A stretch of 32,000 bases of DNA from Oleispira antarctica RB-8 (GTDB lineage Bacteria; Pseudomonadota; Gammaproteobacteria; Pseudomonadales; Oceanobacteraceae). Made by a program: the position numbers and the translations under genes. Below are positions 763-16,538 of this stretch, piece after piece; positions within the stretch are counted from its first letter, which is position 1; every line of letters starts with the position of its first letter. The notes beneath the pieces are model-generated. The model ran no database searches, had not been told where the DNA came from, and saw nothing but the letters and a program-made list of their open reading frames with translations. The stretch is taken from contig FO203512.1 in assembly GCA_000967895.1 (NCBI GenBank), positions 1,293,350-1,325,349 on the forward strand, in the 5' to 3' direction.

Positions 763-3396
763 ATGCCACAAATTATTAATACCAACATTGCCTCGTTGAA
801 CGCACAGCGTAACTTGGACAAATCACAGTCTTCAAACCAGCAAGCGCTACAGCGTTTATCATCAGGTCTTCGTATTAACAGTGCGAAAGACGATGCAGCA
901 GGTTTGGCGATTTCTACTCGTTTCACCTCTCAGATCAAAGGTCTGAACGTAGCAGTACGTAACGCAGGTGATGGTATCGCATTAGCACAAACCGCAGAAG
1001 GCGCGTTGGGTTCAATGAACGACAACCTTCAGCGTATTCGTGAACTGTCAGTGCAGTCTGCTAACGCAACCAACTCAGATGTGGATAGAGACGCACTGCA
1101 AGCGGAAGTGGGTCAGCTAGTAGCTGAGATTACACGTACTTCTGAAGAGACTGATTTTAATGGCCGTAAGTTGTTAGATGGTTCTTTCTCTGCTTCTTTC
1201 CAAGTTGGTGCAAACGCTGGGCAAACCATTGATGTTTCGATTGCTGAACTAACGTCTGAGAAGTTAGGTTCTTCTAGCCAAGCGGGTGTTTCTGCTCAGG
1301 GTACAGATCAAAAGCTTGAAAATGGTGATTTAGTTATTAATGGTTCAAATATTAGAGCCTCTGTTTCTGGTGACGATTCATTATCTTTTGCTGATAAAGA
1401 AAAATCAGGGATTGCCAAAGCTGCTGCGATTAATGAATTCTCTGCTGAAACGGGTGTTAGTGCAACGGTAGATGCTAACGTTGTTATTGGTTCCGATATG
1501 GCGACAGGTACTGTAACTGGGAGTGCTAAGGCAGCGGCTAATATTAAACTGAATGGTGTTGAAATCAGTATACAGGGTACATCCAATGCGAATGACTCTG
1601 ATAAATCTGCAACCCGTGGATCTGTTATCGCAGCAATTAATGCCAAAGCTGATCAAACAGGTGTAACCGCATCGGATGGTGGCAATGATGGTGGTGTTAT
1701 TTTAACAGCAGAGGATGGGCGTAACATCACTTTAGAAGGTGTTGTACAGACAGGTGTTACTGACATAACTTCTGATGGTAAAGATTTGTCCGTTTTTGGT
1801 TTATCTGATGAAAATATTGCTGCGGTTACAGCAGAAACTTCTTATGCAGGTTTTACTTTAACGGCAGAGAATGCGAATACAGATATTACTATTAGTGGTG
1901 GTAATAATACTGGCAACGGAAATCTTGAAAATTCTGGTTTGGCGGGTGGTACTTACTCTGCACAAACTGCGGTAACAAGTTCAACAGATATTACTTTAGG
2001 AAAAACAGAGGCTAATACAGTTACCTTTGCTCCAGCGGATGGTACTGGACCAGCAATAACAGCTGCAGCAGAAGCTGCAGGTTTTAATTTTAATTTTGAT
2101 GATCTAGTTACAATTGCAGATTCTGGCACTGCAGATGATGCATTTGCTGCTATTAATACTGCATTTACAGATGCTGGTTTAACAACTCAAATTACTGCAG
2201 CAGCAGGCCCAGGCGGGGTAGCTGTATCACAAGATATGATCGGCACTGCTTTTGCCAGTGCAGCGGCAGAAGCTTCTGGTATTGAGCGTGGAATTCAGGA
2301 CGGTGATATAAAAATCAATGATGTACAAGTATCAGCCTCTAGTTCATTGGATGATACGGCTTCAGATACAACGGCTAATACATCTAAAGCTGAATCATCA
2401 GGTATTGCTATTGCAGCTGCAATCAATAAGTCTTCAGGAGAAACTGGAGTAAGTGCAGCGGTTAATGAAACAGTTGTTGTAGGTGAAGGCGTTACTGGTG
2501 CGTTAACATTTGGTGATGGGACAGGTGCTGTCACGGAAGCTAATGCTGGGGCTACACTAAAATTAACAGTCAATGGTGTTGACGTTAACCTCACGGAAAC
2601 TGGAGATTTTGAGAAAAACAAGGCCGCTGCCATTACTGCAATTAACGAGGTATCTGGTCAAACCGGTGTTATTGCTAGTGATAATGGTGAGTCTTTAACA
2701 CTTACTGCTGCTGATGGAAGAAATTTATCTTTGTATGCAGAATCGTCAACTGATTTCACTGATGGGGTTGCTGCAGGCGTAGCAGGTACATTAGATGGTA
2801 CTGCTGATAAAGGAACGGACTCAGCTTTATTATTAACTAATATTAATAATTTTGGGCTAAGTGATACTTCAGTAGGTTTGAATCAAGGTGATAACCTTGC
2901 AGCTGCAGATAGTGTGATTGCAAATGCCGAGTTAACGTATTCAACAACAGCTGTTACTTCTTACTCAACGGTAACACTGGATTCAGCTTCAGCTTTTGAT
3001 GTGAGTTATGGTAGTAATGGCTCTAAGGGTCTTGATGACTCAGGCTTCGTAGCAGGAGCATTCGGTGGTGGTGAAGATGGTCAAGCCCTTTCTGATCTTG
3101 ATGTTTCAACGGTAGAAGGTGCTAATAAAGCATTGGTAGCCGTTGATAACGCCATTGCCCAGGTTGCTAGTCAGCGAGCCGATTTAGGTGCCGTTCAAAA
3201 CCGTATGGAGTCTACCGTAAGTAACTTGCAAGTGACGTCTGAAAACTTGAACGCGGCAAACTCGCGAATTCAAGATGCCGATTTCGCATCAGAAACTGCA
3301 GAGCTACAGCGTACAAACGTGCTACAGCAGGCCGGTATCTCGGTACTAGCCCAGGCTAACGCATCAGGCCAGCAGGTTCTTTCACTTCTAGGATAA
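763..3396 (+). CDS. fliC: Flagellin, unusually large (877 aa)
   Basis: The N terminus [18 protein letters not shown]...[19 protein letters not shown]...[19 protein letters not shown] and the C terminus [15 protein letters not shown]...[45 protein letters not shown] are canonical flagellin D0/D1 segments. An RBS AGAGGG lies upstream. The central region of about 615 aa is T/A/G/S/D/N-rich. Confidence 0.97.
1318..1917 (+). repeat. Flagellin outer-domain module copy 1 (aa 186-385)
   Basis: [12 protein letters not shown]...[22 protein letters not shown]...[10 protein letters not shown]...[23 protein letters not shown]...[13 protein letters not shown]...VFGLSDE... aligns in the same order with copy 2. 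Confidence 0.75.
2296..3015 (+). repeat. Flagellin outer-domain module copy 2 (aa 512-751)
   Basis: [12 protein letters not shown]...[22 protein letters not shown]...[12 protein letters not shown]...[23 protein letters not shown]...[13 protein letters not shown]...NFGLSDT... has the same motif order as copy 1. It is diverged, so this is a protein-level duplication. Confidence 0.75.
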
Positions 3397-3547: not shown

Positions 3548-3958
3548 ATGATTGATATGAAAGCACATTTAACCGATAGAGTTTCGTTAGTTCAGAAAAA
3601 CGCAACTCCGCTTTCATCATCCGCTGCTAGTGCTTATGGAAAAGAACAAGTTGCAGCAACAGGTAAAATCGAGAGTACGAATGTGAGTGGCAATGGTTTG
3701 CCACAAAATGTAGAAAAGATTGCCGAAGTTAGTAATGAACAGATGAGAGATGCTGTTTCTAAACTAAATGATTATGTGCAATCAACGGAACGCACCCTCG
3801 ATTTTCAAATGGATGAAGATAGCGGTAAAACAGTGATTAAGGTGTTCGATAAGACCTCTTCAGAATTAATTCGTCAGATACCTAACGAATTAGCTTTAGA
3901 GTTGGCGCAAAACTTGAATGATGATGAACCATCGTTATTGTTTAGCGCCCAAGTGTGA
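3548..3958 (+). CDS. flaG: Flagellar protein FlaG
   Basis: The C-terminal half LDFQMDEDSGKTVIKVFDKTSSELIRQIPNELALELAQNL is the FlaG family signature. An RBS GAGGTG lies upstream. The gene sits in the conserved position between flagellin and fliD. Confidence 0.9.
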   Translation: MIDMKAHLTDRVSLVQKNATPLSSSAASAYGKEQVAATGKIESTNVSGNGLPQNVEKIAEVSNEQMRDAVSKLNDYVQSTERTLDFQMDEDSGKTVIKVFDKTSSELIRQIPNELALELAQNLNDDEPSLLFSAQV

Positions 3959-4007: not shown

Positions 4008-4034
4008 TAAAAATAACCCCAGACTGGCCGATAA
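4008..4034 (+). promoter_or_regulatory. Sigma-28 (FliA) promoter for fliD, consensus match
   Basis: TAAA (4008-4011), 15 nt, then GCCGATAA (4027-4034). The -10 is an 8/8 match at the canonical spacing, 65 nt upstream of the fliD ATG. Confidence 0.75.
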
Positions 4035-4053
4035 GGTTAGTACTGGGGTTTTT
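4015..4053 (+). terminator. Hairpin plus T run after flaG, overlapping the fliD promoter
   Basis: AACCCCAG (4015-4022) pairs with CTGGGGTT (4043-4050). Additional inner pairs are ACT/AGT and GGCC/GGTT. TTT follows at 4051-4053. Confidence 0.55.
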
Positions 4054-4098
4054 GCGTTTAAGCAATTCCTAATTGCGTTAGAAAGGTGGAGGCATGCT

Positions 4099-7000
4099 AT
4101 GGCTGCTATTGAATCGTTAGGGTTAGGGTCAGGAGTTTTAACCAATGACTTGGTTGAAAAAATCATAGGTGCAACCCGTGAAGCCTCAGACAAACGTTTG
4201 GAGCGCGATGAAACTGTATTGGATGCACGTATTACCGCCTATGGTGAAATTAAATCGCTTGCATCTATCTTGCAGTCTGCGACCAGTGCGCTGTCTTTAC
4301 CCTCTACCGCAGGCTCTACGACGGCCTCATCTTCAGATGAATCGATCTTAACGACTGAAGCATCCATTCTTGCCGAGCCGGGTACTTATAGTGTTGAAGT
4401 CTTAAATACCGCCAAAGCCCACAGTGTAGTAACGGATGCGTATAGCAGTATTGATGAAATTATTGGTGTTGGTGAGATTCAAATCACCTTTGGTGAAATT
4501 ACCTATGACGGCACAGGTGGTTTTTTAAGCCAAGATATTGACCCAACGAAGGGGGGTCCACCGATTACGATTGATGATTCGAATAAAACCTTAAGTGGCA
4601 TTCGAGAAGCGATTAATAATGCCAATATTGGTGCTAAAGCCTCGATTATTAACGACGGTTCAGGTTATCGCTTGGTGATTAGCTCTGAAAATACGGGTGA
4701 AAATAATGCCATGCGTATTATGACCCTTGATGACCTGGGTGGCGTGGCAACAACGGGTCTTTCTTCTATTGCCTATAACGAAGAGCAAAACGGCGCTGGT
4801 ACCATGACGCAAACCGCTAAAGGTGAAGACGCGTTATTAAAAGCCAATGGTCTAACCATTACTCGTGAGTCAAATTCGATTGAAGAAGTTGTGCCGGGTG
4901 TTACTCTCAATTTATTATCAGCTGATGTTGGTAAACCCATTTCTATTGTCGTTGCACCTGATACTGCGGGCATTCAAGAAAAAATCCAAGATTTTGTGAA
5001 TGCGTATAATGAGTTTAAAAAATTCTCAGATGATTTAACGTCATTTAACTCCGATACCGAACAAGCGGGTTTGTTATTAGGGGATTCTACCCTACGTGGC
5101 ATTCAATCACAGGTTCGTTCGATGATCAGCCAGCCAATTGAAGGCTTGAGTGGAAAGTTTCGCTCGTTAACTGAATTGGGTGTGAATACTGATAGAACGA
5201 ATGATTTTTTATTGGACTTTGATCCTGCCGTTTTTTCAAAAGCGATGAAAGAAGATCGTGAATCGATTATTAGTATTTTGGCAAAAAGTGGTACGGCCGA
5301 AGATGCGCAAATTCGTTATGTGAATGACTCGGTTAATACTCAGCCTGGTACTTATGGTGTTGAAGTCACGCAGCTAGCAACACAGGCTATTTATCAGGGT
5401 GGCAGTGTGGCGGGTTTAGATTTTTCTAGCCCAGTAACGATTGACGAAAGTAATAATAATTTCACCTTAAACCTTAACGGCAAGAACGAGCAAATTACGT
5501 TAACGTCGGGCAGCTATGCAACGGGTGACGAATTAGCCAAGCAAATTGGATTTCAGATAAACAGCAATGAAACGTATAAGAAATTTTCTTATGGTGTGAC
5601 GGTTGATTACGATGCTATTGGTAATAACTTTTCTATTACGTCGAATAAATACGGTGAAGATTCTAAAATTTCGTTTACCAGTACCGATTCTAATAGTGCC
5701 AATACGCTAGGGTTCAATACACTGGGTAAGGGACTTTATGAAGGGGTATCACTGACGACCTTAGGCAGTGATACATTTTTAGGTAAGGGTTCTACAACAC
5801 AGCCAGGTAATCGTTCGGTAGCGGAATCTGAAGGTATTAACTTTGCGACGAGTAATGCGACCTTTTCGTTAGATATTGGTGGTGGCGCTATTCCTGTGAC
5901 CGTCAATCTGAATGCTGCGGGCAATGATTTAAACGGCGATAGTGTTATTGGCGATCGTAAGGATACGCTGCAAGCTATTCAAACCGCGATTGATGCCACG
6001 GCACTGAATGGCGATGTGATCGCTGACTTCGACGATAATGGCTTCTTAACATTTACCACGTCGGCGCTGGGCACGGCTCAGCAAATAAATTTAAGCAATG
6101 TAGGCAGTACCAGTAGCGATACAGTATTGGGCTTAAACGGTACACAGGGTGTTCAAACCAATGGTGATGATGCTGGTTTAACGCTTGGGTCTGCCACAGA
6201 ATTTAATATGGCGGTTGACGGTATTGGTACGACAGCGAAAGTTAACGTACCGGCAGGAACCTATTTAACGGGGGCTGATTTAGCCGCCGCCGTTGAGCTA
6301 GCAATGGATACGGCTTTAAGCACTGACGCTGCATTTGCAGGGTTAACCAAAGGTGGCGAGTCGGGTACGGGCAGTCGAGATATTAGTACGGCTATCGACT
6401 TTTCAACCGCTAACGCTGGCTTCATGTTAAATGTTTCTGGGGTTGAAAAAGAGATTGTTGTTAGTGGTAATGACCCTGATAACATCGTTAACATACAAGC
6501 TGCTTTAGATTCTGAATTTGGCGCTGGAATAGTCACTGCAAGCTTAGACGGTACAGGATTAAAACTGGCGTCAGTCGCAACCGGCCATAATGAATATTTA
6601 GAAGTAACATCTGATGGCCGTGGCGCGCAAACTGATACCAGTTCTGCTGTGACTAACATTACCACGGGTATTGATTTTAGTGGTGTCGGTAATAATGCCA
6701 CCTTTACCTTAGCGGTCGATGGCGTTGATATTAACGTTGATGTGAATGCCAATGGCAGCGCAGGCACGAACGATGCGGCTTCTACTTTGACCGTGGTTCA
6801 GCGTGCGTTAGATACGGCATTGCAAGCGAGTGGTCAATTCACGGCAGGTGATGTTATGGCTAAACTGGATAGCGGCGGTAATTTATTCTTTGAAACTCAA
6901 TCTAAAAATGGTGTTAAAACGGCTGCAACCTATGGTTCTGGCGCGAGTATTGAGGTTAAAAATATTGATGCTAACGCCTCGGCTAGTTTAGGATTAGCAG

Positions 7001-8055
7001 CCGGTACGACGTCTAATGGTTATGATACGTTAGGTTTTGATGATACACGCCGCTATGGTTATGACGTCGAAGCGGATGTGAGTTATGTCTATGACGCTGA
7101 AAAAGATCTAGGATCTCTGCAAATTAATGTGGGTGGTAATGCGACTCAGGTTTCGTTTACTGATATTGATCCGGCGGCAATTTCTATTTTAGGTTTGCAG
7201 GATGCAGCAACTTATTCTCCTAAGGTGGCTCAAGGGCAAAACGTTGAAGGCAAAATCAATGGTGTCGAAGCGAAAGGTAATGGTCAGTACCTTTCTGCGA
7301 CGGATGGAAATAAAAAAGCCAGTAACGGTTTCTATATTGCTAATGCTGCGGCTGATTTTTCAGCAGGTGTGAATCTTGATGCAACGAATAATACTTTTAC
7401 TATTAAAGTCGATGGTGTTGAACGTACCATTAGTTTAGCGCAGCCAGCCCCTTATAATACCGGTGAAGGTTTGGCAGCAGCGCTGCAAGCGGCAATCAAT
7501 GAAGATGCTGTTTTTAAAGCCGATAAAATATCGGTGAAGGTAGAATATAACGATGATCCTTCGTCTTTCTCGTATCAAAAATTCGGTATTATCTCGGCTT
7601 CAACGGGAGAAGATTCTTCGGTTGAAATGGTTGATGTTCCTGGGCCTACTTCAGCCATTTTTGGTTTTGTAAATGGTAAGGCTGAAGGTGAAACAGGTAA
7701 AGCTCAGGTAGGGAATATTGATCCTTCGAGTGGTATTCGTATGAAAATTACGGGCGGCGCACTCGGTGATCGCGGTAGCATCACTTATGTATCGGGTTTT
7801 GCTGATCAATTAAATGCTAGCCTGTTATCTATGTTAGATAGTGGTGATGGTTTAATTACGAATAAATTAAATGCATTAGATAACGATAAAGTGCAGCTAG
7901 CTGAAAAAAGAGAGCGTTTAGAAACACGAATGTCAGCGCAAGAAGCTCGGTTAAAAAGTCAGTTTTTATATAACGATGCTCTTGTTTCTAAATTGAATTC
8001 AACAGGTGATTTTATCACCCAGCAATTCGAAGCGATGAATAACTATGGTAAATAG
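4099..8055 (+). CDS. fliD: Flagellar filament cap protein FliD (HAP2), giant form (1318 aa)
   Basis: N terminus MAAIESLGLGSGVLTNDLVEKIIGATREASDKRLERDETVLDARITAYGEIKS; IN motif LSGIREAINNANIGAKASIINDGSGYRLVISS; C terminus GSITYVSGFADQLNASLLSML...KRERLETRMSAQEARLKSQFLYNDALVSKLNSTGDFITQQFEAM. All are typical FliD. An RBS AGGTGGAGG lies upstream. Confidence 0.95.
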   Translation: MAAIESLGLGSGVLTNDLVEKIIGATREASDKRLERDETVLDARITAYGEIKSLASILQSATSALSLPSTAGSTTASSSDESILTTEASILAEPGTYSVEVLNTAKAHSVVTDAYSSIDEIIGVGEIQITFGEITYDGTGGFLSQDIDPTKGGPPITIDDSNKTLSGIREAINNANIGAKASIINDGSGYRLVISSENTGENNAMRIMTLDDLGGVATTGLSSIAYNEEQNGAGTMTQTAKGEDALLKANGLTITRESNSIEEVVPGVTLNLLSADVGKPISIVVAPDTAGIQEKIQDFVNAYNEFKKFSDDLTSFNSDTEQAGLLLGDSTLRGIQSQVRSMISQPIEGLSGKFRSLTELGVNTDRTNDFLLDFDPAVFSKAMKEDRESIISILAKSGTAEDAQIRYVNDSVNTQPGTYGVEVTQLATQAIYQGGSVAGLDFSSPVTIDESNNNFTLNLNGKNEQITLTSGSYATGDELAKQIGFQINSNETYKKFSYGVTVDYDAIGNNFSITSNKYGEDSKISFTSTDSNSANTLGFNTLGKGLYEGVSLTTLGSDTFLGKGSTTQPGNRSVAESEGINFATSNATFSLDIGGGAIPVTVNLNAAGNDLNGDSVIGDRKDTLQAIQTAIDATALNGDVIADFDDNGFLTFTTSALGTAQQINLSNVGSTSSDTVLGLNGTQGVQTNGDDAGLTLGSATEFNMAVDGIGTTAKVNVPAGTYLTGADLAAAVELAMDTALSTDAAFAGLTKGGESGTGSRDISTAIDFSTANAGFMLNVSGVEKEIVVSGNDPDNIVNIQAALDSEFGAGIVTASLDGTGLKLASVATGHNEYLEVTSDGRGAQTDTSSAVTNITTGIDFSGVGNNATFTLAVDGVDINVDVNANGSAGTNDAASTLTVVQRALDTALQASGQFTAGDVMAKLDSGGNLFFETQSKNGVKTAATYGSGASIEVKNIDANASASLGLAAGTTSNGYDTLGFDDTRRYGYDVEADVSYVYDAEKDLGSLQINVGGNATQVSFTDIDPAAISILGLQDAATYSPKVAQGQNVEGKINGVEAKGNGQYLSATDGNKKASNGFYIANAAADFSAGVNLDATNNTFTIKVDGVERTISLAQPAPYNTGEGLAAALQAAINEDAVFKADKISVKVEYNDDPSSFSYQKFGIISASTGEDSSVEMVDVPGPTSAIFGFVNGKAEGETGKAQVGNIDPSSGIRMKITGGALGDRGSITYVSGFADQLNASLLSMLDSGDGLITNKLNALDNDKVQLAEKRERLETRMSAQEARLKSQFLYNDALVSKLNSTGDFITQQFEAMNNYGK
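5419..7713 (+). repeat. Array of about six diverged modules of 80-110 aa inserted in FliD (aa about 441-1205)
   Basis: Recurrent core N-x-x-F-x-[LMI]-x-[VLI]-[DNGS]-G-(4)-[IV]-x-[VL] followed by a helix-like L-x-x-A-[LI]-[QD]-x-A-[IL]. Examples: NNNFTLNLNGKNEQITL..ELAKQIGFQIN; NATFSLDIGGGAIPVTV..LQAIQTAIDAT; TEFNMAVDGIGTTAKVNV..LAAAVELAMDTA; AGFMLNVSGVEKEIVV..IVNIQAALDSE; NATFTLAVDGVDINVDV..LTVVQRALDTALQ; NNTFTIKVDGVERTISL..LAAALQAAINED. Confidence 0.7.
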
Positions 8056-8216: not shown

Positions 8217-10349
8217 TTATAGAATTTCAATGTTTGATTGCTTACGGCAATAGAACTGATACATTCCCGCAAAAATACTCTCATCGTCCTGTTCCACTGT
8301 ATCCCAATTTTCTAATGTATTGTTACCTTTTAGCTTACCAATTGTGCTTTCGAAAGCTTGGTGAGCGCTGGTGGTCGGTAGCATGCCGATAAAATCGAGC
8401 TTATTATTCGCAAGTAAATTTGAGATTTTAGTGGCTGTAAATTGATGTTCTTGTGCGTGGAATATTAAGTCACGGCAATTACTCATACTGTAAAAATCAT
8501 TAGAATTAACAATTTCATTCCAGTCTCCAGGAATTTGATTCATTAATAACGCTTGGCGTAATAATCGTTGATCCAGTGCCTTACCTTCATTTTTCTCTGA
8601 TTGCAGGTTGCTCTGTGCAATGAGTTTTCTAAAAGTGATTACTTGCTTACGTGCTGCTTCGCTGTATAGAGCAATTTTCATTACCCCAGTAGGCGATAGA
8701 AGGTGTTGTAGGCTCTGCAAGCCTTGCTCGGGGTTTTCCATGTGGTGAAGCACCCCAGAGCATTCAATGACATCAAACAAGATTGGGAAGTCGCTGAATT
8801 CTAAAATATCCGCCTGTATAAACTGAATGTTTTCTACATTATATTTACTCGCTTGTTGTTTAGCATATGCTAAAGAACGACTACTTAAATCGATAGCAAT
8901 AATATTCAAATCATTGAAGTAGCTGGCTAAACGAATAGCTTGGCGGCCTGTGCCACAACCCGCGACGAGTACGTTTAATTTTTTCTTTCCTTGCCAGTGA
9001 CTTAAATTTAAATGTGGAAAATTCTTTAATAGTGCCTGTTGATAACTACTTGCAGTATTGAAACCAATATCTTTCCAGCGCGGGTAAGGGTTTTCTTCGT
9101 ATTGAGCTTGGACTTTTAGAGAGACAGAGTTTCTATTGCCTCTATTTTTATTGTTCAGGTTTTTATTAGAGCGATTGGTATGTGACCAGTAGGGCAATTT
9201 TTTAGCCAGTTGAATTTCTTTATCACGATTGTTAATTGCGTAATCAATGATGTCGGCTAAATAACTGTTTTTTAATGCCTGTGTGACGTGCTTAGACGCT
9301 AATATTTCAGCGAGTTTTGTCTGAGATAAATCTTTGTATTGTGCCAAGATAAGAATCGCAGGAGCTATATCATCAAGCTTCCATTCAGTTTGTTCGGTTA
9401 CTTGCAGTAATAGTGTTTCTAAGCCAGAAATTATTTCTTGTTCGTTTTGGGTTACTGGCCAAACGTATTCATTTAATTGAGCTTGAACGGCCATGTCGTG
9501 CGCCAGCTCTAAATGAATGCTGGGGATGGTCATGTCTTGAACGGTATTAAATAACAAGGTTTGCCTAAGGCTAATAAATAAACGTTCTAATAAAGCATCG
9601 CAAAAATGGAAACGTTTTAAGCTATTTAATAATAACAGATCGCTCGCAATTTGATCAAACTCAAGTGGCGTGCTGGCTTCATTAATTTTAAGTTTATGAT
9701 GCAGCAGTGTCGTAATCAGATTTCTTAATAGTGAATGATCAACGTTTTCAAAATTTAGGTAGCGTAGAACGTTTGCTTCTAATTCTGGAGAATAAAAATC
9801 AGCATTAATATGTGAGGCCGATTCAAATAACTTATTCCTAATGTGTGGGTCGTTTTCTTGCGTCTTGATTAATTCTTGATACAGCTGAAATGCTTCAACG
9901 TATTTGCCTTGTTCTAAATAAGTATAAGCCAGAGATGAAGCTGAACGCGTTGCCACCTTGGATATTTTTAATGACGCGCTAAAATGTTTTTCAGCTAGGG
10001 TCAGTTGCCCTAAAGCCAAGGCAATATGGCCAGCACTGTACAGTGCGGTAGAGCTATCGGGTTTTGTGCTTAGAGCGCGATCAATAATGCTTTGCGCTTT
10101 GTGCGGATTACCCACGAATAATTCAATACGTGCATATAAGTTAAGCCCTTTAATGCCGCTAGGATTAATATCAAGGGCTTGCTTAACCTTGTACAAGGCA
10201 GTCTCTAATAAGCCCTCGTTGATATCGGTGGCATGTTCAGCAGATTGCAGCTTGGCGAAGTCACGACTCGCCTCTTGTACCAACAAGGTATAAGAGTCGA
10301 GATCAATACGACGGGTCGTTTTTGTATTAGAGGCATGTAAAAGGTTCAT
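8217..10349 (-). CDS. TPR-repeat protein fused to a class I SAM-dependent methyltransferase (710 aa), function unknown
   Basis: The N-terminal third has TPR-like repeats (..ALYKVKQALDINPSGIKGLNLYARIELFVGNPHKAQSIIDRAL..; ..LAYTYLEQGKYVEAFQLYQELIK..). The C-terminal part has methyltransferase motifs: LNVLVAGCGTGRQAI (motif I), IIAIDLS, IQFIQADILEF, FDVIECSGVLHHM. It is the only minus-strand gene in the window. Confidence 0.85.
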   Translation of the reverse strand: MNLLHASNTKTTRRIDLDSYTLLVQEASRDFAKLQSAEHATDINEGLLETALYKVKQALDINPSGIKGLNLYARIELFVGNPHKAQSIIDRALSTKPDSSTALYSAGHIALALGQLTLAEKHFSASLKISKVATRSASSLAYTYLEQGKYVEAFQLYQELIKTQENDPHIRNKLFESASHINADFYSPELEANVLRYLNFENVDHSLLRNLITTLLHHKLKINEASTPLEFDQIASDLLLLNSLKRFHFCDALLERLFISLRQTLLFNTVQDMTIPSIHLELAHDMAVQAQLNEYVWPVTQNEQEIISGLETLLLQVTEQTEWKLDDIAPAILILAQYKDLSQTKLAEILASKHVTQALKNSYLADIIDYAINNRDKEIQLAKKLPYWSHTNRSNKNLNNKNRGNRNSVSLKVQAQYEENPYPRWKDIGFNTASSYQQALLKNFPHLNLSHWQGKKKLNVLVAGCGTGRQAIRLASYFNDLNIIAIDLSSRSLAYAKQQASKYNVENIQFIQADILEFSDFPILFDVIECSGVLHHMENPEQGLQSLQHLLSPTGVMKIALYSEAARKQVITFRKLIAQSNLQSEKNEGKALDQRLLRQALLMNQIPGDWNEIVNSNDFYSMSNCRDLIFHAQEHQFTATKISNLLANNKLDFIGMLPTTSAHQAFESTIGKLKGNNTLENWDTVEQDDESIFAGMYQFYCRKQSNIEIL

Positions 10350-15911: not shown

Positions 15912-15935
15912 GAATAAAAGGTCGAGGTGGTGGTT

Positions 15936-16538
15936 ATGGTTAATCGTGCGGATATCAACTCTGTTTTATTACAGATGCGTCAAGTACGTCAGCAAATGCA
16001 AACCACTGATCCAGCGTCGACTGTTGGCATGCAAAATACGATACAAAATCAGTTGCAAAGCCCCAATCAAAATTCTGCCGTCGGGGCACCACAAAACAGT
16101 TTTGCGGCGCAATTACAGCAGCAAAGAAGTCAGCTTGATCCTGCTGCTATGACTTCTCCTTCACCGTCTAATATGATGGCTTCGAACGTTAATCCTTCTA
16201 CCATGACCCCGTCGCAGTTTCGCAATGAATTAACTCAGCAAGATTTGATGAATCAAACTGCTGCGTTAGATACTCGTCCGGGCAATCAGATGAACTTTTC
16301 GTCGTCTGCTGCGAATCCTAGTATCGGCGAAATGATGGGCAATGCGATTAACCAAGTTAACGCTACTCAAAAACACGCGGGTAGCATGAGTACGCGTTAT
16401 ACCCAGGGTGATCCAAATATCGACTTACCCGAAGTGATGGTGGCGATGCAAAAATCCAGTGTTTCTTTTCAAGCAATGTCGCAGGTACGCAATAAGTTAT
16501 TAGAAGCGTATAAAGACATTATGAACATGCCAGTATAG
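15936..16538 (+). CDS. fliE: Flagellar rod adaptor FliE, about twice the normal length (200 aa from ATG 15936; the ORF opens at GTG 15927)
   Basis: The C terminus GDPNIDLPEVMVAMQKSSVSFQAMSQVRNKLLEAYKDIMNMPV and SIGEMMGNAINQVNATQK are canonical FliE. ATG 15936 is about 8 nt from the RBS GAGGTGG. A Q/N/S/P/M-rich segment of about 105 aa lies between the N-terminal helix and the conserved core. Confidence 0.9.
   Translation: MVNRADINSVLLQMRQVRQQMQTTDPASTVGMQNTIQNQLQSPNQNSAVGAPQNSFAAQLQQQRSQLDPAAMTSPSPSNMMASNVNPSTMTPSQFRNELTQQDLMNQTAALDTRPGNQMNFSSSAANPSIGEMMGNAINQVNATQKHAGSMSTRYTQGDPNIDLPEVMVAMQKSSVSFQAMSQVRNKLLEAYKDIMNMPV

What the first reader, a model, noticed from the sequence alone, without database searches (positions are those of the whole stretch)
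4099..8055. Giant filament cap FliD (1318 aa), roughly two to three times normal size
FliD proteins in well-studied species are roughly 450-700 aa. Here both conserved terminal coiled-coil regions and the usual head region (aa 1 to about 440, including both GTY-x-VEV motifs) are intact. About 750 extra residues are inserted before the C-terminal leg. The cap must fit on the growing tip of a filament whose subunits are themselves oversized. An enlarged cap next to an enlarged flagellin suggests co-evolution of tip and filament outer surfaces. Alternatively the cap may act as an adhesin, since FliD mediates attachment in several pathogens. I am not aware of a characterised cap of this size.
Basis: partly seen in the sequence, partly recalled or inferred. 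Interest (0 to 1): 0.75.

Follow-up and report, generated by a model that had tools for sequence, protein, structure and literature searches.

The report
Giant modular flagellar cap protein FliD
This is a real, 1318-residue flagellar cap protein of the marine bacterium Oleispira antarctica: an ordinary cap with a chain of about seven extra small domains built by repeated duplication, found in the same group of bacteria that make unusually thick flagella from oversized flagellins.

Summary
The ORF (4099-8055, +, 1318 aa) is real and is 100% identical to the annotated capping protein of Oleispira antarctica RB-8. Orthologues of 1296-1326 aa occur in at least ten related genera, so it is not a fusion artefact. 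Residues 1-397 and 1248-1315 align to the whole 467-aa Salmonella FliD. About 850 residues replace an 18-residue loop in the D1 helix bundle, the site where C. jejuni FliD carries D4. The insert is a split D2-like adaptor carrying five full and one partial ~100-aa repeat modules, distantly like FliD's own D3, plus one other beta domain. Related FliDs form a length ladder (~680, ~800, ~920, ~1050, ~1165, ~1310, 1408 aa) that follows module number. Giant caps always sit beside large flagellins (732-1393 aa), and FlgK is also enlarged (992 vs ~640 aa). However, cap length is fixed while flagellin length varies two-fold, and some large flagellins have ordinary caps. The insert is as conserved as the core. 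Most likely the core works normally and the array forms a peripheral crown suited to a thick filament; this function is inferred, not shown. I rate it a new variant of a known kind (FliD with accessory D4/D5 domains) and of moderate interest.

The parts
4099..8055 (+). fliD ORF, 1318 aa (136.4 kDa, pI 4.2, no Cys or Trp), including the stop codon
4099..4374 (+). aa 1-92: N-terminal D0/D1 helices (FliD_N)
   Evidence: Pfam FliD_N at 11-108; aligns to Salmonella FliD from residue 1
4375..4968 (+). aa 93-290: canonical head. D2a strand (first GTYSVEV motif, 93-118), D3 (119-236, contains the IN-type motif SGIREAINNANIGAKASIINDGSGYRL) and D2b (237-290)
   Evidence: Alignment to Salmonella, E. coli and P. 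aeruginosa FliD structures; the module HMM hits D3 weakly at aa 157-223, E 1e-3
4969..5289 (+). aa 291-397: C-terminal part of the D1 helix bundle, up to the insertion point
   Evidence: Pfam FliD_C profile 1-164 ends at aa 402; the Salmonella alignment ends at 397 = Salmonella 380
5290..7839 (+). aa 398-1247: the ~850-aa insert that replaces Salmonella FliD residues 381-398
   Evidence: AF2 model of aa 405-1235 has mean pLDDT 78. Best Foldseek PDB hits are H. pylori FliD 6iwy (E 4e-7) and the C. jejuni cap 9gsx
5299..5433 (+). aa 401-445: first piece of a split D2-like adaptor domain ('D4a'), carrying the second GTYGVEV motif
   Evidence: hhalign of D2 N-part against this piece 91%; concatenated D2 against D4 pieces 85.7%, E 5.5e-6; beta hairpin in the model
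5434..5745 (+). aa 446-549: repeat module M1
   Evidence: Module HMM E 7e-32; hhalign M1 vs M7 99%; the single module of ~680-aa FliDs is M1-type
5836..6171 (+). aa 580-691: repeat module M2
   Evidence: Module HMM E 4e-26; hhalign M2 vs M5 98.5% and M2 vs M4 97%
6193..6324 (+). aa 699-742: partial module M3 (first half only)
   Evidence: Module HMM E 4e-7 over HMM positions 7-48; hhalign M3 vs M1 95% and M3 vs M7 96.5%
6394..6678 (+). aa 766-860: repeat module M4
   Evidence: Module HMM E 7e-24
6688..7026 (+). aa 864-976: repeat module M5
   Evidence: Module HMM E 2e-31
7054..7368 (+). aa 986-1090: M6, a mostly beta region unlike the modules. Its C-terminal half (QNVEGKINGVEAKGNGQ) looks like the second piece of the D2-like adaptor
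   Evidence: No significant module match; aligns to the D2b motif GEDALLKANGLTIT; motif invariant in 13 FliDs of 685-1318 aa; lower pLDDT of 47-77
7369..7698 (+). aa 1091-1200: repeat module M7
   Evidence: Module HMM E 1e-36; hhalign M1 vs M7 99%
7699..7794 (+). aa 1201-1232: closing strands of the adaptor (GIRMKITGGALGDRGSITYVSG)
   Evidence: Conserved in all FliDs of 685-1318 aa aligned; only a weak match to D2b, so this assignment is inferred
7840..8052 (+). aa 1248-1318: C-terminal D1/D0 helix (leg)
   Evidence: Aligns to Salmonella FliD 399-466 and to the FliD C-terminal peptides crystallised with FliT
763..3396 (+). Neighbouring flagellin, 877 aa (the 'large' class)
   Evidence: Flagellin_N and Flagellin_C; NCBIfam flagellin models
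3548..3958 (+). flaG
   Evidence: Pfam FlaG
4008..4034 (+). Sigma-28-type promoter-like match TAAA-N15-GCCGATAA, 65 nt upstream of fliD
   Evidence: The only exact match in the window; 0.29 matches expected with up to 1 mismatch allowed; sequence read
8217..10349 (-). TPR + class I SAM methyltransferase, 710 aa, convergent with fliD. It is a companion gene specific to this clade
   Evidence: Pfam; homologue present in 9 of 16 giant-FliD loci and 0 of 59 others; also seen in L009 and L083
10587..11042 (+). fliS
   Evidence: Pfam FliS and TIGR00208

Best explanation
The gene encodes a genuine filament cap protein with a complete, ordinary core: N- and C-terminal D0/D1 'leg' helices and a D2-D3 'lid'.

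A loop of the D1 helix bundle, just before the last helix, carries an ~850-residue accessory array. This is the site where C. jejuni FliD carries its D4 domain. The array consists of:
- a split D2-like adaptor domain;
- five full and one partial ~100-residue beta-alpha modules nested in the adaptor, distantly related to FliD's own D3 (IN-motif type);
- one further beta domain.

The array grew by stepwise tandem duplication of the module. Related bacteria show every step from one module (~680 aa) to five or six (~1310 aa).

Inferred mechanism:
- Flagellin insertion is done by the unchanged core.
- The five arrays of the pentamer (about 35 extra domains, roughly 430 kDa) hang from the leg-lid junction, outside the folding cavity.
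- They form a wide crown that enlarges the cap's periphery to suit the thick (30 nm or more) filament that this clade builds from large or giant flagellins.
- This is part of a coordinated enlargement of the surface-exposed distal flagellar proteins (FlgK, flagellin, FliD).

Status of the steps: the anatomy and the evolutionary ladder are shown. The position outside the cavity is inferred by analogy with C. jejuni D4. The 'matching a thick filament' role is inferred from co-occurrence only.
For: Identity
- Pfam FliD_N and FliD_C are above cutoff. The flaG-fliD-fliS context is as expected. The protein is 100% identical to the O. antarctica RB-8 capping protein.
- The core aligns end to end with Salmonella FliD, and the insert sits at Salmonella 380/399. 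C. jejuni FliD aligns through aa 491, into the insert. Its D4 is described as an insert in the D1 bundle (PMC7316729).

Repeats
- hhalign gives 94-99% probability among M1, M2, M4, M5 and M7. The module HMM gives E-values of 1e-24 to 1e-37 at five sites plus a partial site.
- The D2-like adaptor scores 85.7%, E 5.5e-6. The D3 relationship rests on an HMM hit at E 1e-3 in the window and repeated hits on the native D3 of other FliDs.

Fold
- The whole-insert AF2 model (pLDDT 78) matches H. pylori FliD D2-D5 best (E 4e-7). It also matches the C. jejuni cap, FliD D2-D3 crystal structures and P. aeruginosa FliC D2/D3.
- H. pylori D4/D5 are described as D2/D3-like (PMC8306008).

Ladder
- Insert length of ~200, 310, 450, 570, 690 and 825 aa goes with 1, 2, 3, 3-4, 4-5 and 5-6 modules.

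Selection
- The insert is as conserved as the core (0.55-0.72 pairwise identity in every region, almost no indels) across genera.

Link to the thick filament
- All giant caps sit next to 732-1329-aa flagellins, against a median of 508 aa elsewhere.
- FlgK is 992-994 aa in giant-cap genomes against 635-675 aa elsewhere.
- The same genera are the giant-flagellin, 30-nm-filament group of PMC6248924.

Precedent for an accessory cap domain that sets cap width to an outer layer
- Vibrio FliD D4 widens the cap to the sheath diameter and is dispensable for assembly (PMC13106801).
Against: - FliD length is constant (1296-1322 aa) while the neighbouring flagellin varies from 732 to 1329 aa within the clade (rho -0.32, not significant). 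The cap therefore does not track filament subunit size.
- Large flagellins occur with ordinary caps: FliD/flagellin 689/948, 690/858, 691/839 and 480/824.
- The giant clade is one lineage, so the association is close to a single evolutionary event.
- C. jejuni D4 is far from the cap cavity and is thought not to take part in flagellin incorporation (PMC12221982).
- FliD head domains can be deleted or swapped in Pseudomonas without loss of flagella (PMC8533109).
- The normal Salmonella cap (about 13 nm) is already narrower than its 24-nm filament, so covering the outer domains is not a general requirement.
- The modules show no significant homology to the flagellin outer region.
- The single-module fold search was not significant (E 0.12).
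Confidence: 0.5

Rival explanations
1. Tip adhesin or surface-contact array. The core caps the filament, and the repeated exposed modules bind a conserved ligand or surface (particles, oil-water interfaces, prey or host cells). This would place a multivalent binding device with five arms at the very tip of a single polar flagellum.
For: FliD acts as an adhesin in several pathogens (PMC8306008). Tandem small beta-rich domains are typical of bacterial surface adhesins (general knowledge). The array is exposed, strongly acidic (pI 4.06) and conserved, which fits a conserved target. Several members of the clade are hydrocarbon degraders (PMC6248924).
Against: No adhesin, lectin or carbohydrate-binding family was detected; the only extra Pfam hit is below threshold (GBD_Hemicentin, 17 bits against a cutoff of 27). 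The clade also includes genera that are not known oil degraders (Reinekea, Gynuella, Natronospirillum, Venatoribacter). This reading does not explain the parallel enlargement of FlgK at the cell-proximal end of the filament, nor the exclusive pairing with large flagellins.
Confidence: 0.2
2. Protective or otherwise filament-independent decoration. The array may shield the cap core and growing tip from proteases, phages or grazers, or it may be a tolerated by-product of easy module duplication with only weak function.
For: Accessory FliD domains are dispensable for assembly in Vibrio, and heads are replaceable in Pseudomonas. Module number differs widely between lineages, and expansions happened independently: P0192 has five M1-type modules, and P0132 has modules inserted in the head as well.
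Against: Within the giant clade the architecture is frozen, with no indels over 40-60% sequence divergence, and the insert is as conserved as the essential core. That argues against neutrality and against arms-race diversification. Exporting 850 extra residues per subunit through the type III channel is a cost, although only for five subunits per flagellum.
Confidence: 0.15
3. Sheath coordination, as proposed for Vibrio FliD D4. In this reading the flagellum is sheathed and the array anchors the tip to the sheath.
For: The Vibrio precedent (PMC13106801).
Against: Vibrio D4 is helical, is modelled as a D3-D4 unit on top of the cap and, to judge from the offset in the NCBIfam match, is probably inserted in the head. 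Here the modules are beta-alpha and sit in the D1 loop. The thick filaments of relatives were attributed to the giant flagellin itself, and the paper makes no mention of a sheath.
Confidence: 0.05
4. Assembly or annotation artefact: fliD fused to a neighbouring gene or a frameshifted repeat.
For: None beyond the unusual length.
Against: More than 100 independent database clusters from isolates and metagenomes have the same 1306-1326-aa architecture at 100% coverage, and 16 genome loci from different genera do too. The canonical FliD C-terminus follows the insert in frame.
Confidence: 0.01

Closest known systems
Helicobacter pylori FliD (685 aa; crystal structure 6IWY, domains D2-D5)
   Same: It has accessory head-region domains D4 and D5 with D2- and D3-like folds in addition to the normal cap core (PMC8306008). 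It is the best structural match of the Oleispira insert (Foldseek E 4e-7) and also the top, though non-significant, hit of a single module.
   Different: It has two extra domains rather than about seven. Sequence identity is about 15%. It has no tandem array, and it belongs to a sheathed flagellum of a pathogen.
Campylobacter jejuni FliD (642 aa; 6SIH, 9GSX) with domain D4
   Same: [quoted passage not shown] The phmmer alignment of the window protein to 9gsx runs through aa 491, into the start of the insert, so the insertion site is the same. D4 lies away from the cap cavity (PMC12221982).
   Different: It is a single extra domain, and it is paired with a normal-size, heavily glycosylated flagellin.
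Salmonella / E. coli / P. aeruginosa FliD (467-474 aa; 9GNZ, 5H5V, 5FHY)
   Same: The whole of these proteins aligns to aa 1-397 plus 1248-1315: D0-D1 legs and a D2-D3 lid, forming a pentameric cap.
   Different: They have an 18-residue loop where Oleispira has 850 residues.
The ~680-aa FliD class of many Gamma- and Betaproteobacteria (Methylococcales, Burkholderiales, Cellvibrionaceae and others)
   Same: Same insertion site, same D2-like adaptor motifs and one M1-type module (architecture D3-M1). This is the evolutionary base of the ladder.
   Different: One module instead of five to six. Neighbouring flagellins are mostly 385-710 aa.
Giant flagellins of Bermanella marisrubri and Oleibacter (Thalassolituus) marinus (PMC6248924)
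   Same: Same clade, same locus and the same evolutionary mode: internal domain duplication producing large exposed regions. The filaments are 30 nm or more wide.
   Different: It is a different protein. The flagellin repeats ('DE regions') are not detectably homologous to the FliD modules. Flagellin length is highly variable, whereas FliD length is fixed. The paper does not mention FliD.
Vibrio FliD D4 domain (PMC13106801)
   Same: [quoted passage not shown]
   Different: It is helical, sits on top of the cap and is modelled together with D3, and its partner is the membrane sheath.

Membership tests
FliD / HAP2 filament cap protein | N-terminal FliD_N helical region (PF02465) | tested here: met
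   aa 11-108, 65.3 bits against a cutoff of 24.8
FliD / HAP2 filament cap protein | FliD_C region (PF07195), including the C-terminal helix | tested here: met
   148.4 bits against a cutoff of 25.4, in two stretches. aa 1248-1315 align to Salmonella FliD 399-466 and to the FliT-binding C-terminal peptides 5gna, 6ch2 and 5krw.
FliD / HAP2 filament cap protein | D2-D3 head between the D1 helices | tested here: met
   Continuous alignment to the D1-D2-D3 crystal structures 5h5v, 5fhy, 5xlj and 5h5t
FliD / HAP2 filament cap protein | Reaches the trusted cutoff of an NCBIfam FliD equivalog model | tested here: not met
   The best model, PRK08032, scores 224.8 bits against a cutoff of 387, and all seven FliD models fall below cutoff. 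This reflects divergence and the split by the insert, not a different family.
FliD / HAP2 filament cap protein | Located in a late flagellar operon next to flagellin, flaG and fliS | tested here: met
   the same order is seen in related loci
FliD / HAP2 filament cap protein | Forms a pentameric cap at the filament tip and is required for flagellin polymerisation | not testable with these tools
   Needs genetics and cryo-EM or cryo-ET
FliD with accessory D4/D5-type domains (H. pylori, C. jejuni) | Extra globular domain(s) inserted in the D1 helix bundle before the last helix | tested here: met
   Insert lies between Salmonella residues 380 and 399; the C. jejuni alignment continues into the insert; PMC7316729
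FliD with accessory D4/D5-type domains (H. pylori, C. jejuni) | Extra domains have D2- and D3-like folds | tested here: inconclusive
   For: the whole-insert model hits 6iwy at E 4e-7 and hits FliD D2-D3 structures. The D2-like adaptor scores 85.7%. D3 against the module HMM gives E 1e-3, and D3 against M2 gives 29.6% in hhalign. Not decisive: the single-module fold search has 6iwy on top but only at E 0.12, TM 0.44.
Giant-flagellin / thick-filament system (Thomson et al. 2018) | Flagellin longer than 1000 aa | tested here: not met
   The window flagellin is 877 aa, which is the 'large' (>800 aa) class of that paper. Relatives with the same cap have 732-1329 aa.
Giant-flagellin / thick-filament system (Thomson et al. 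2018) | Filament about 30 nm wide | not testable with these tools
   Measured only for Bermanella and Oleibacter
Bacterial adhesin | Recognisable adhesin, lectin or carbohydrate-binding domain | tested here: not met
   Pfam and NCBIfam scans give only FliD families plus one sub-threshold hit. Binding itself was not tested.

The most novel reading that the evidence does not exclude
The cap, the hook-filament junction protein FlgK and the flagellin have been enlarged together as one system. In this reading the conserved crown of about 35 domains on the cap works as a second, outer assembly station. It would hold or template the very long outer regions of large or giant flagellins while they fold at the tip, a job no known cap performs. 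The clade-specific TPR-methyltransferase between fliD and fliS would modify one of these exposed proteins.
Probability: 0.15. Interest if true: 0.75.

Novelty: new variant of a known kind. Interest (0 to 1): 0.45.

Why it matters
Cap proteins are usually described as 450-700-aa proteins with at most two accessory domains. This case shows that the D1-loop insertion site can carry a whole domain array, and that related bacteria preserve every intermediate step. That makes it a clean natural series for asking what accessory cap domains do.

The giant cap, a 992-aa FlgK and large or giant flagellins co-occur in the only bacteria experimentally shown to make 30-nm filaments. This suggests the thick flagellum is a multi-protein adaptation, not a property of flagellin alone.

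It also gives a direct experimental handle: delete the array and look at the tip. The main limitations are that the function is only inferred and that the association rests largely on one clade.

Tried and rejected
- Self-BLASTP of the protein found no internal repeats. The repeats are only visible to profile methods.
- An exact-sequence look-up of the window protein in the contig index found nothing, although the protein itself is in the protein collection.
- A 39-sequence alignment was too diverse to seed the genome scan. A 13-sequence alignment worked.
- I tested whether the FliD modules are copies of the flagellin outer domains. The module HMM against the window flagellin gave whole-protein E = 1. 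Profile-profile comparison with 16 flagellins gave at best 8.6% probability. This idea was rejected, apart from two module-like hits in the Thalassolituus marinus flagellin.
- I tested whether FlgL is enlarged too. It is not: 412-439 aa in giant-cap genomes.
- Sigma-54 promoter pattern matches were at chance level. The sigma-70 and terminator scan showed nothing relevant near fliD.
- Look-ups of P0124, P0130, P0131 and P0192 gave no neighbouring flagellin because of short contigs or a different context.

Full report

- Yes. The + strand carries one uninterrupted ORF from ATG 4099 to the stop codon ending at 8055, coding for 1318 aa. A Shine-Dalgarno-like AGGTGGAGG lies just upstream.
- Pfam finds FliD_N (aa 11-108) and FliD_C well above their gathering scores. 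The FliD_C profile is broken into two stretches.
- The surrounding genes form a typical polar-flagellum late-gene block. In order they are: the end of flgL, an 877-aa flagellin, flaG, fliD, a convergent TPR/SAM-methyltransferase gene, fliS, fleQ/fleS/fleR and fliE.
- The protein is 100% identical to the 'flagellar capping protein' of Oleispira antarctica RB-8, a member of Oceanospirillaceae.

**2. Is it an artefact?**

- No. All of the best 120 database clusters are FliDs. Apart from three truncated or partial entries they cover 99-100% of the query, with lengths of 1306-1326 aa and identities from 100% down to 54%.
- These come from isolate genomes of Oleispira, Bacterioplanoides, Thalassolituus, Bacterioplanes, Parathalassolituus, Venatoribacter and Oceanobacter, and from many metagenomes.
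- A scan of one genome per species added Bermanella, Reinekea (Saccharospirillaceae), Gynuella and Natronospirillum, with FliDs of 1296-1322 aa.

**3. Anatomy**

*The core.*
- Salmonella FliD (467 aa) aligns in two pieces: residues 1-380 to window aa 1-397, and residues 399-466 to aa 1248-1315. The canonical protein is therefore complete, and about 850 residues replace an 18-residue loop.
- C. jejuni FliD aligns continuously from aa 3 to 491, that is, into the insert. [quoted passage not shown] The insertion site is therefore a known one.
It is actually aa 397, and the second GTY-x-VEV motif belongs to the insert.

*The repeats.*
- Plain self-BLAST sees no repeats. Profile-profile comparison of sub-alignments from 17 orthologues shows one repeat family:
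  - M1 (446-549) vs M7 (1091-1200): 99%
  - M2 (580-691) vs M5 (864-976): 98.5%
  - M2 vs M4 (766-860): 97%
  - M5 vs M7: 94%
  - M3 (699-742) is a half copy.
- An HMM built from these modules finds them at E-values of 1e-24 to 1e-37. It also weakly finds FliD's own D3 domain in the window protein (aa 157-223, E 1e-3) and in many other FliDs.

*The adaptor.*
- The flanking pieces are aa 409-440 with the second GTYGVEV motif, the motif QNVEGKINGVEAKG around aa 1045, and GIRMKITGG...SITYV at aa 1205-1228.
- Together they resemble the split D2 domain (hhalign 85.7%, E 5.5e-6). They are invariant in FliDs from 685 to 1318 aa.
- The insert therefore repeats the logic of the head: a D2-like domain with D3-like domains nested in its loops.

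*Structure prediction.*
- AlphaFold2 on aa 405-1235 gave mean pLDDT 78, with a regular beta-beta-alpha-beta-beta-beta pattern per module.
- The best PDB matches were H. pylori FliD D2-D5 (E 4e-7), the C. jejuni cap, FliD D2-D3 crystal structures and P. aeruginosa FliC D2/D3.
- H. pylori D4/D5 are reported to have D2/D3-like folds (PMC8306008).
- A single-module model was weaker (pLDDT 68). Its top hit was again 6iwy, but this was not significant.

*Composition.* The protein is 136 kDa, has a pI of 4.2 and contains no Cys or Trp.

**4. Evolution: a length ladder**

- An exhaustive search of cluster representatives returned FliDs of about 650-700, 770-830, 895-945, 1020-1080, 1154-1171, 1292-1319 and 1408 aa.
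- I measured the distance between the D1 and C-terminal anchors and counted modules:

| Insert length (aa) | Modules |
|---|---|
| ~200 | 1 |
| ~310 | 2 |
| ~450 | 3 |
| ~570 | 3-4 |
| ~690 | 4-5 |
| ~825 | 5-6 |

- FliDs of 480-565 aa have no module.
- Architectures differ between lineages, so the expansion happened more than once:
  - The giant clade reads D3-M1-M2-M3'-M4-M5-M6-M7.
  - One 1166-aa protein has five M1-type modules in a row.
  - A few proteins also carry modules inside the head.
- Within the giant clade every region of the insert is as conserved as the core (mean pairwise identity 0.55-0.72), with almost no indels.

**5. Link to the flagellin**

- I paired FliD with the adjacent flagellin in 63 genome loci plus the window:

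| Group | n | FliD (aa) | Flagellin (aa) | Median flagellin (aa) |
|---|---|---|---|---|
| Giant caps | 16 | 1296-1322 | 732-1329 | 1116 |
| Others | 48 | 480-934 | 266-1194 | 508 |

- The two groups differ strongly (Mann-Whitney p = 2e-8). Spearman correlation is 0.73 overall, 0.44 among the non-giants (p = 0.002) and -0.32 (not significant) inside the giant clade.
- Two metagenomic large caps add cases: 1408 aa beside a 1393-aa flagellin, and 1168 aa beside a 1382-aa flagellin.
- Counter-examples exist: ordinary caps with flagellins of 824-948 aa.
- The genera involved are those named as giant-flagellin taxa in Thomson et al. 2018. In that work Bermanella and Oleibacter filaments measured at least 30 nm, against 24 nm for Salmonella. 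That paper does not mention FliD.
- FlgK is also enlarged: 992-994 aa in six giant-cap genomes, against 635-675 aa in ten genomes with ~680-aa caps. FlgL is not enlarged.
- The FliD modules are not detectably homologous to the flagellin outer region. The two proteins therefore expanded by separate duplications.

**6. How it most likely works**

- *Shown:* an intact cap core, an accessory array at the D4 site, and strong purifying selection on the array.
- *Inferred from C. jejuni (PMC12221982):* domains at this site lie outside the folding cavity, beside D3 of the neighbouring subunit.
- *Inferred from Vibrio and Pseudomonas:* accessory or head domains are not needed for the basic polymerisation reaction. 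In Vibrio, D4 sets the cap diameter to that of the layer surrounding the filament.
- I therefore favour a peripheral crown that adapts the cap to a thick filament, as part of a coordinated FlgK-flagellin-FliD enlargement. My confidence is about 0.5 for the whole statement, and higher than 0.9 for the anatomy alone.
- The fixed cap size against variable flagellin size, and the large flagellins with ordinary caps, are real objections.
- The rivals are a tip adhesin (0.2), a protective or weakly functional decoration (0.15), sheath coordination (0.05) and an artefact (0.01).

**7. Novelty and verdict**

- The searched literature holds no description of a cap of this size or of the module ladder. 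The protein itself is already annotated as FliD in public databases, and accessory FliD domains are known.
- I rate it a new variant of a known kind, of moderate interest (0.45).

Noticed in passing
window 8217-10349 (- strand): A 710-aa protein with N-terminal TPR repeats and a class I SAM methyltransferase domain lies between fliD and fliS, convergent with fliD. Homologues occur in 9 of 16 giant-FliD loci and in none of 59 other FliD loci, and one also lies next to a 1382-aa flagellin / 1168-aa FliD pair (L083). It could be a modification enzyme for the enlarged exposed flagellar proteins.
   Followed up: partly
L009:1647-4625 (Oleispira sp.); also L001, L004, L006, L008, L010: The hook-filament junction protein FlgK is 992-994 aa in genomes with the giant cap, against 635-675 aa in genomes with ~680-aa caps. 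FlgL stays at 412-439 aa. The FliD module HMM gives weak hits inside some of these FlgK proteins (E 2.6e-8 in L016, 3e-5 in L009).
   Followed up: partly
window 4008-4034 and 4015-4055: An exact sigma-28-type match (TAAA-N15-GCCGATAA) lies 65 nt upstream of fliD and is the only exact match in the window. It overlaps a CCCCAG...CTGGGG hairpin followed by a T-run, which could instead be the flaG terminator.
   Followed up: partly
window 763-3396; flagellin ORFs of L001-L015 and L052: Flagellin length varies from 732 to 1329 aa among genomes whose FliD and FlgK lengths are essentially identical. Even within Oleispira it takes values of 834, 877, 974 and 1014 aa. The filament subunit is the fast-evolving partner, and the cap and junction are frozen.
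   Followed up: partly
L004:5556-9429 (Thalassolituus marinus flagellin, 1255 aa): This giant flagellin gives two hits to the FliD module HMM (best E 6e-7), unlike the window flagellin. Some flagellins may therefore carry FliD-type modules.
   Followed up: no
L081:8001-12227 (P0132, 1408 aa); L082 (P0134, 1068 aa); P0135 (943 aa): Some FliDs carry extra modules inside the head (D3 region, head length 300-407 aa instead of ~180 aa) as well as in the D1 loop. This is a second insertion site for the same module.
   Followed up: partly
window 15927-16538: The fliE ORF as listed is 203 aa from a GTG start, but the FliE family matches only aa 123-203. Either the true start is further downstream or FliE has an unusual N-terminal extension.
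   Followed up: no
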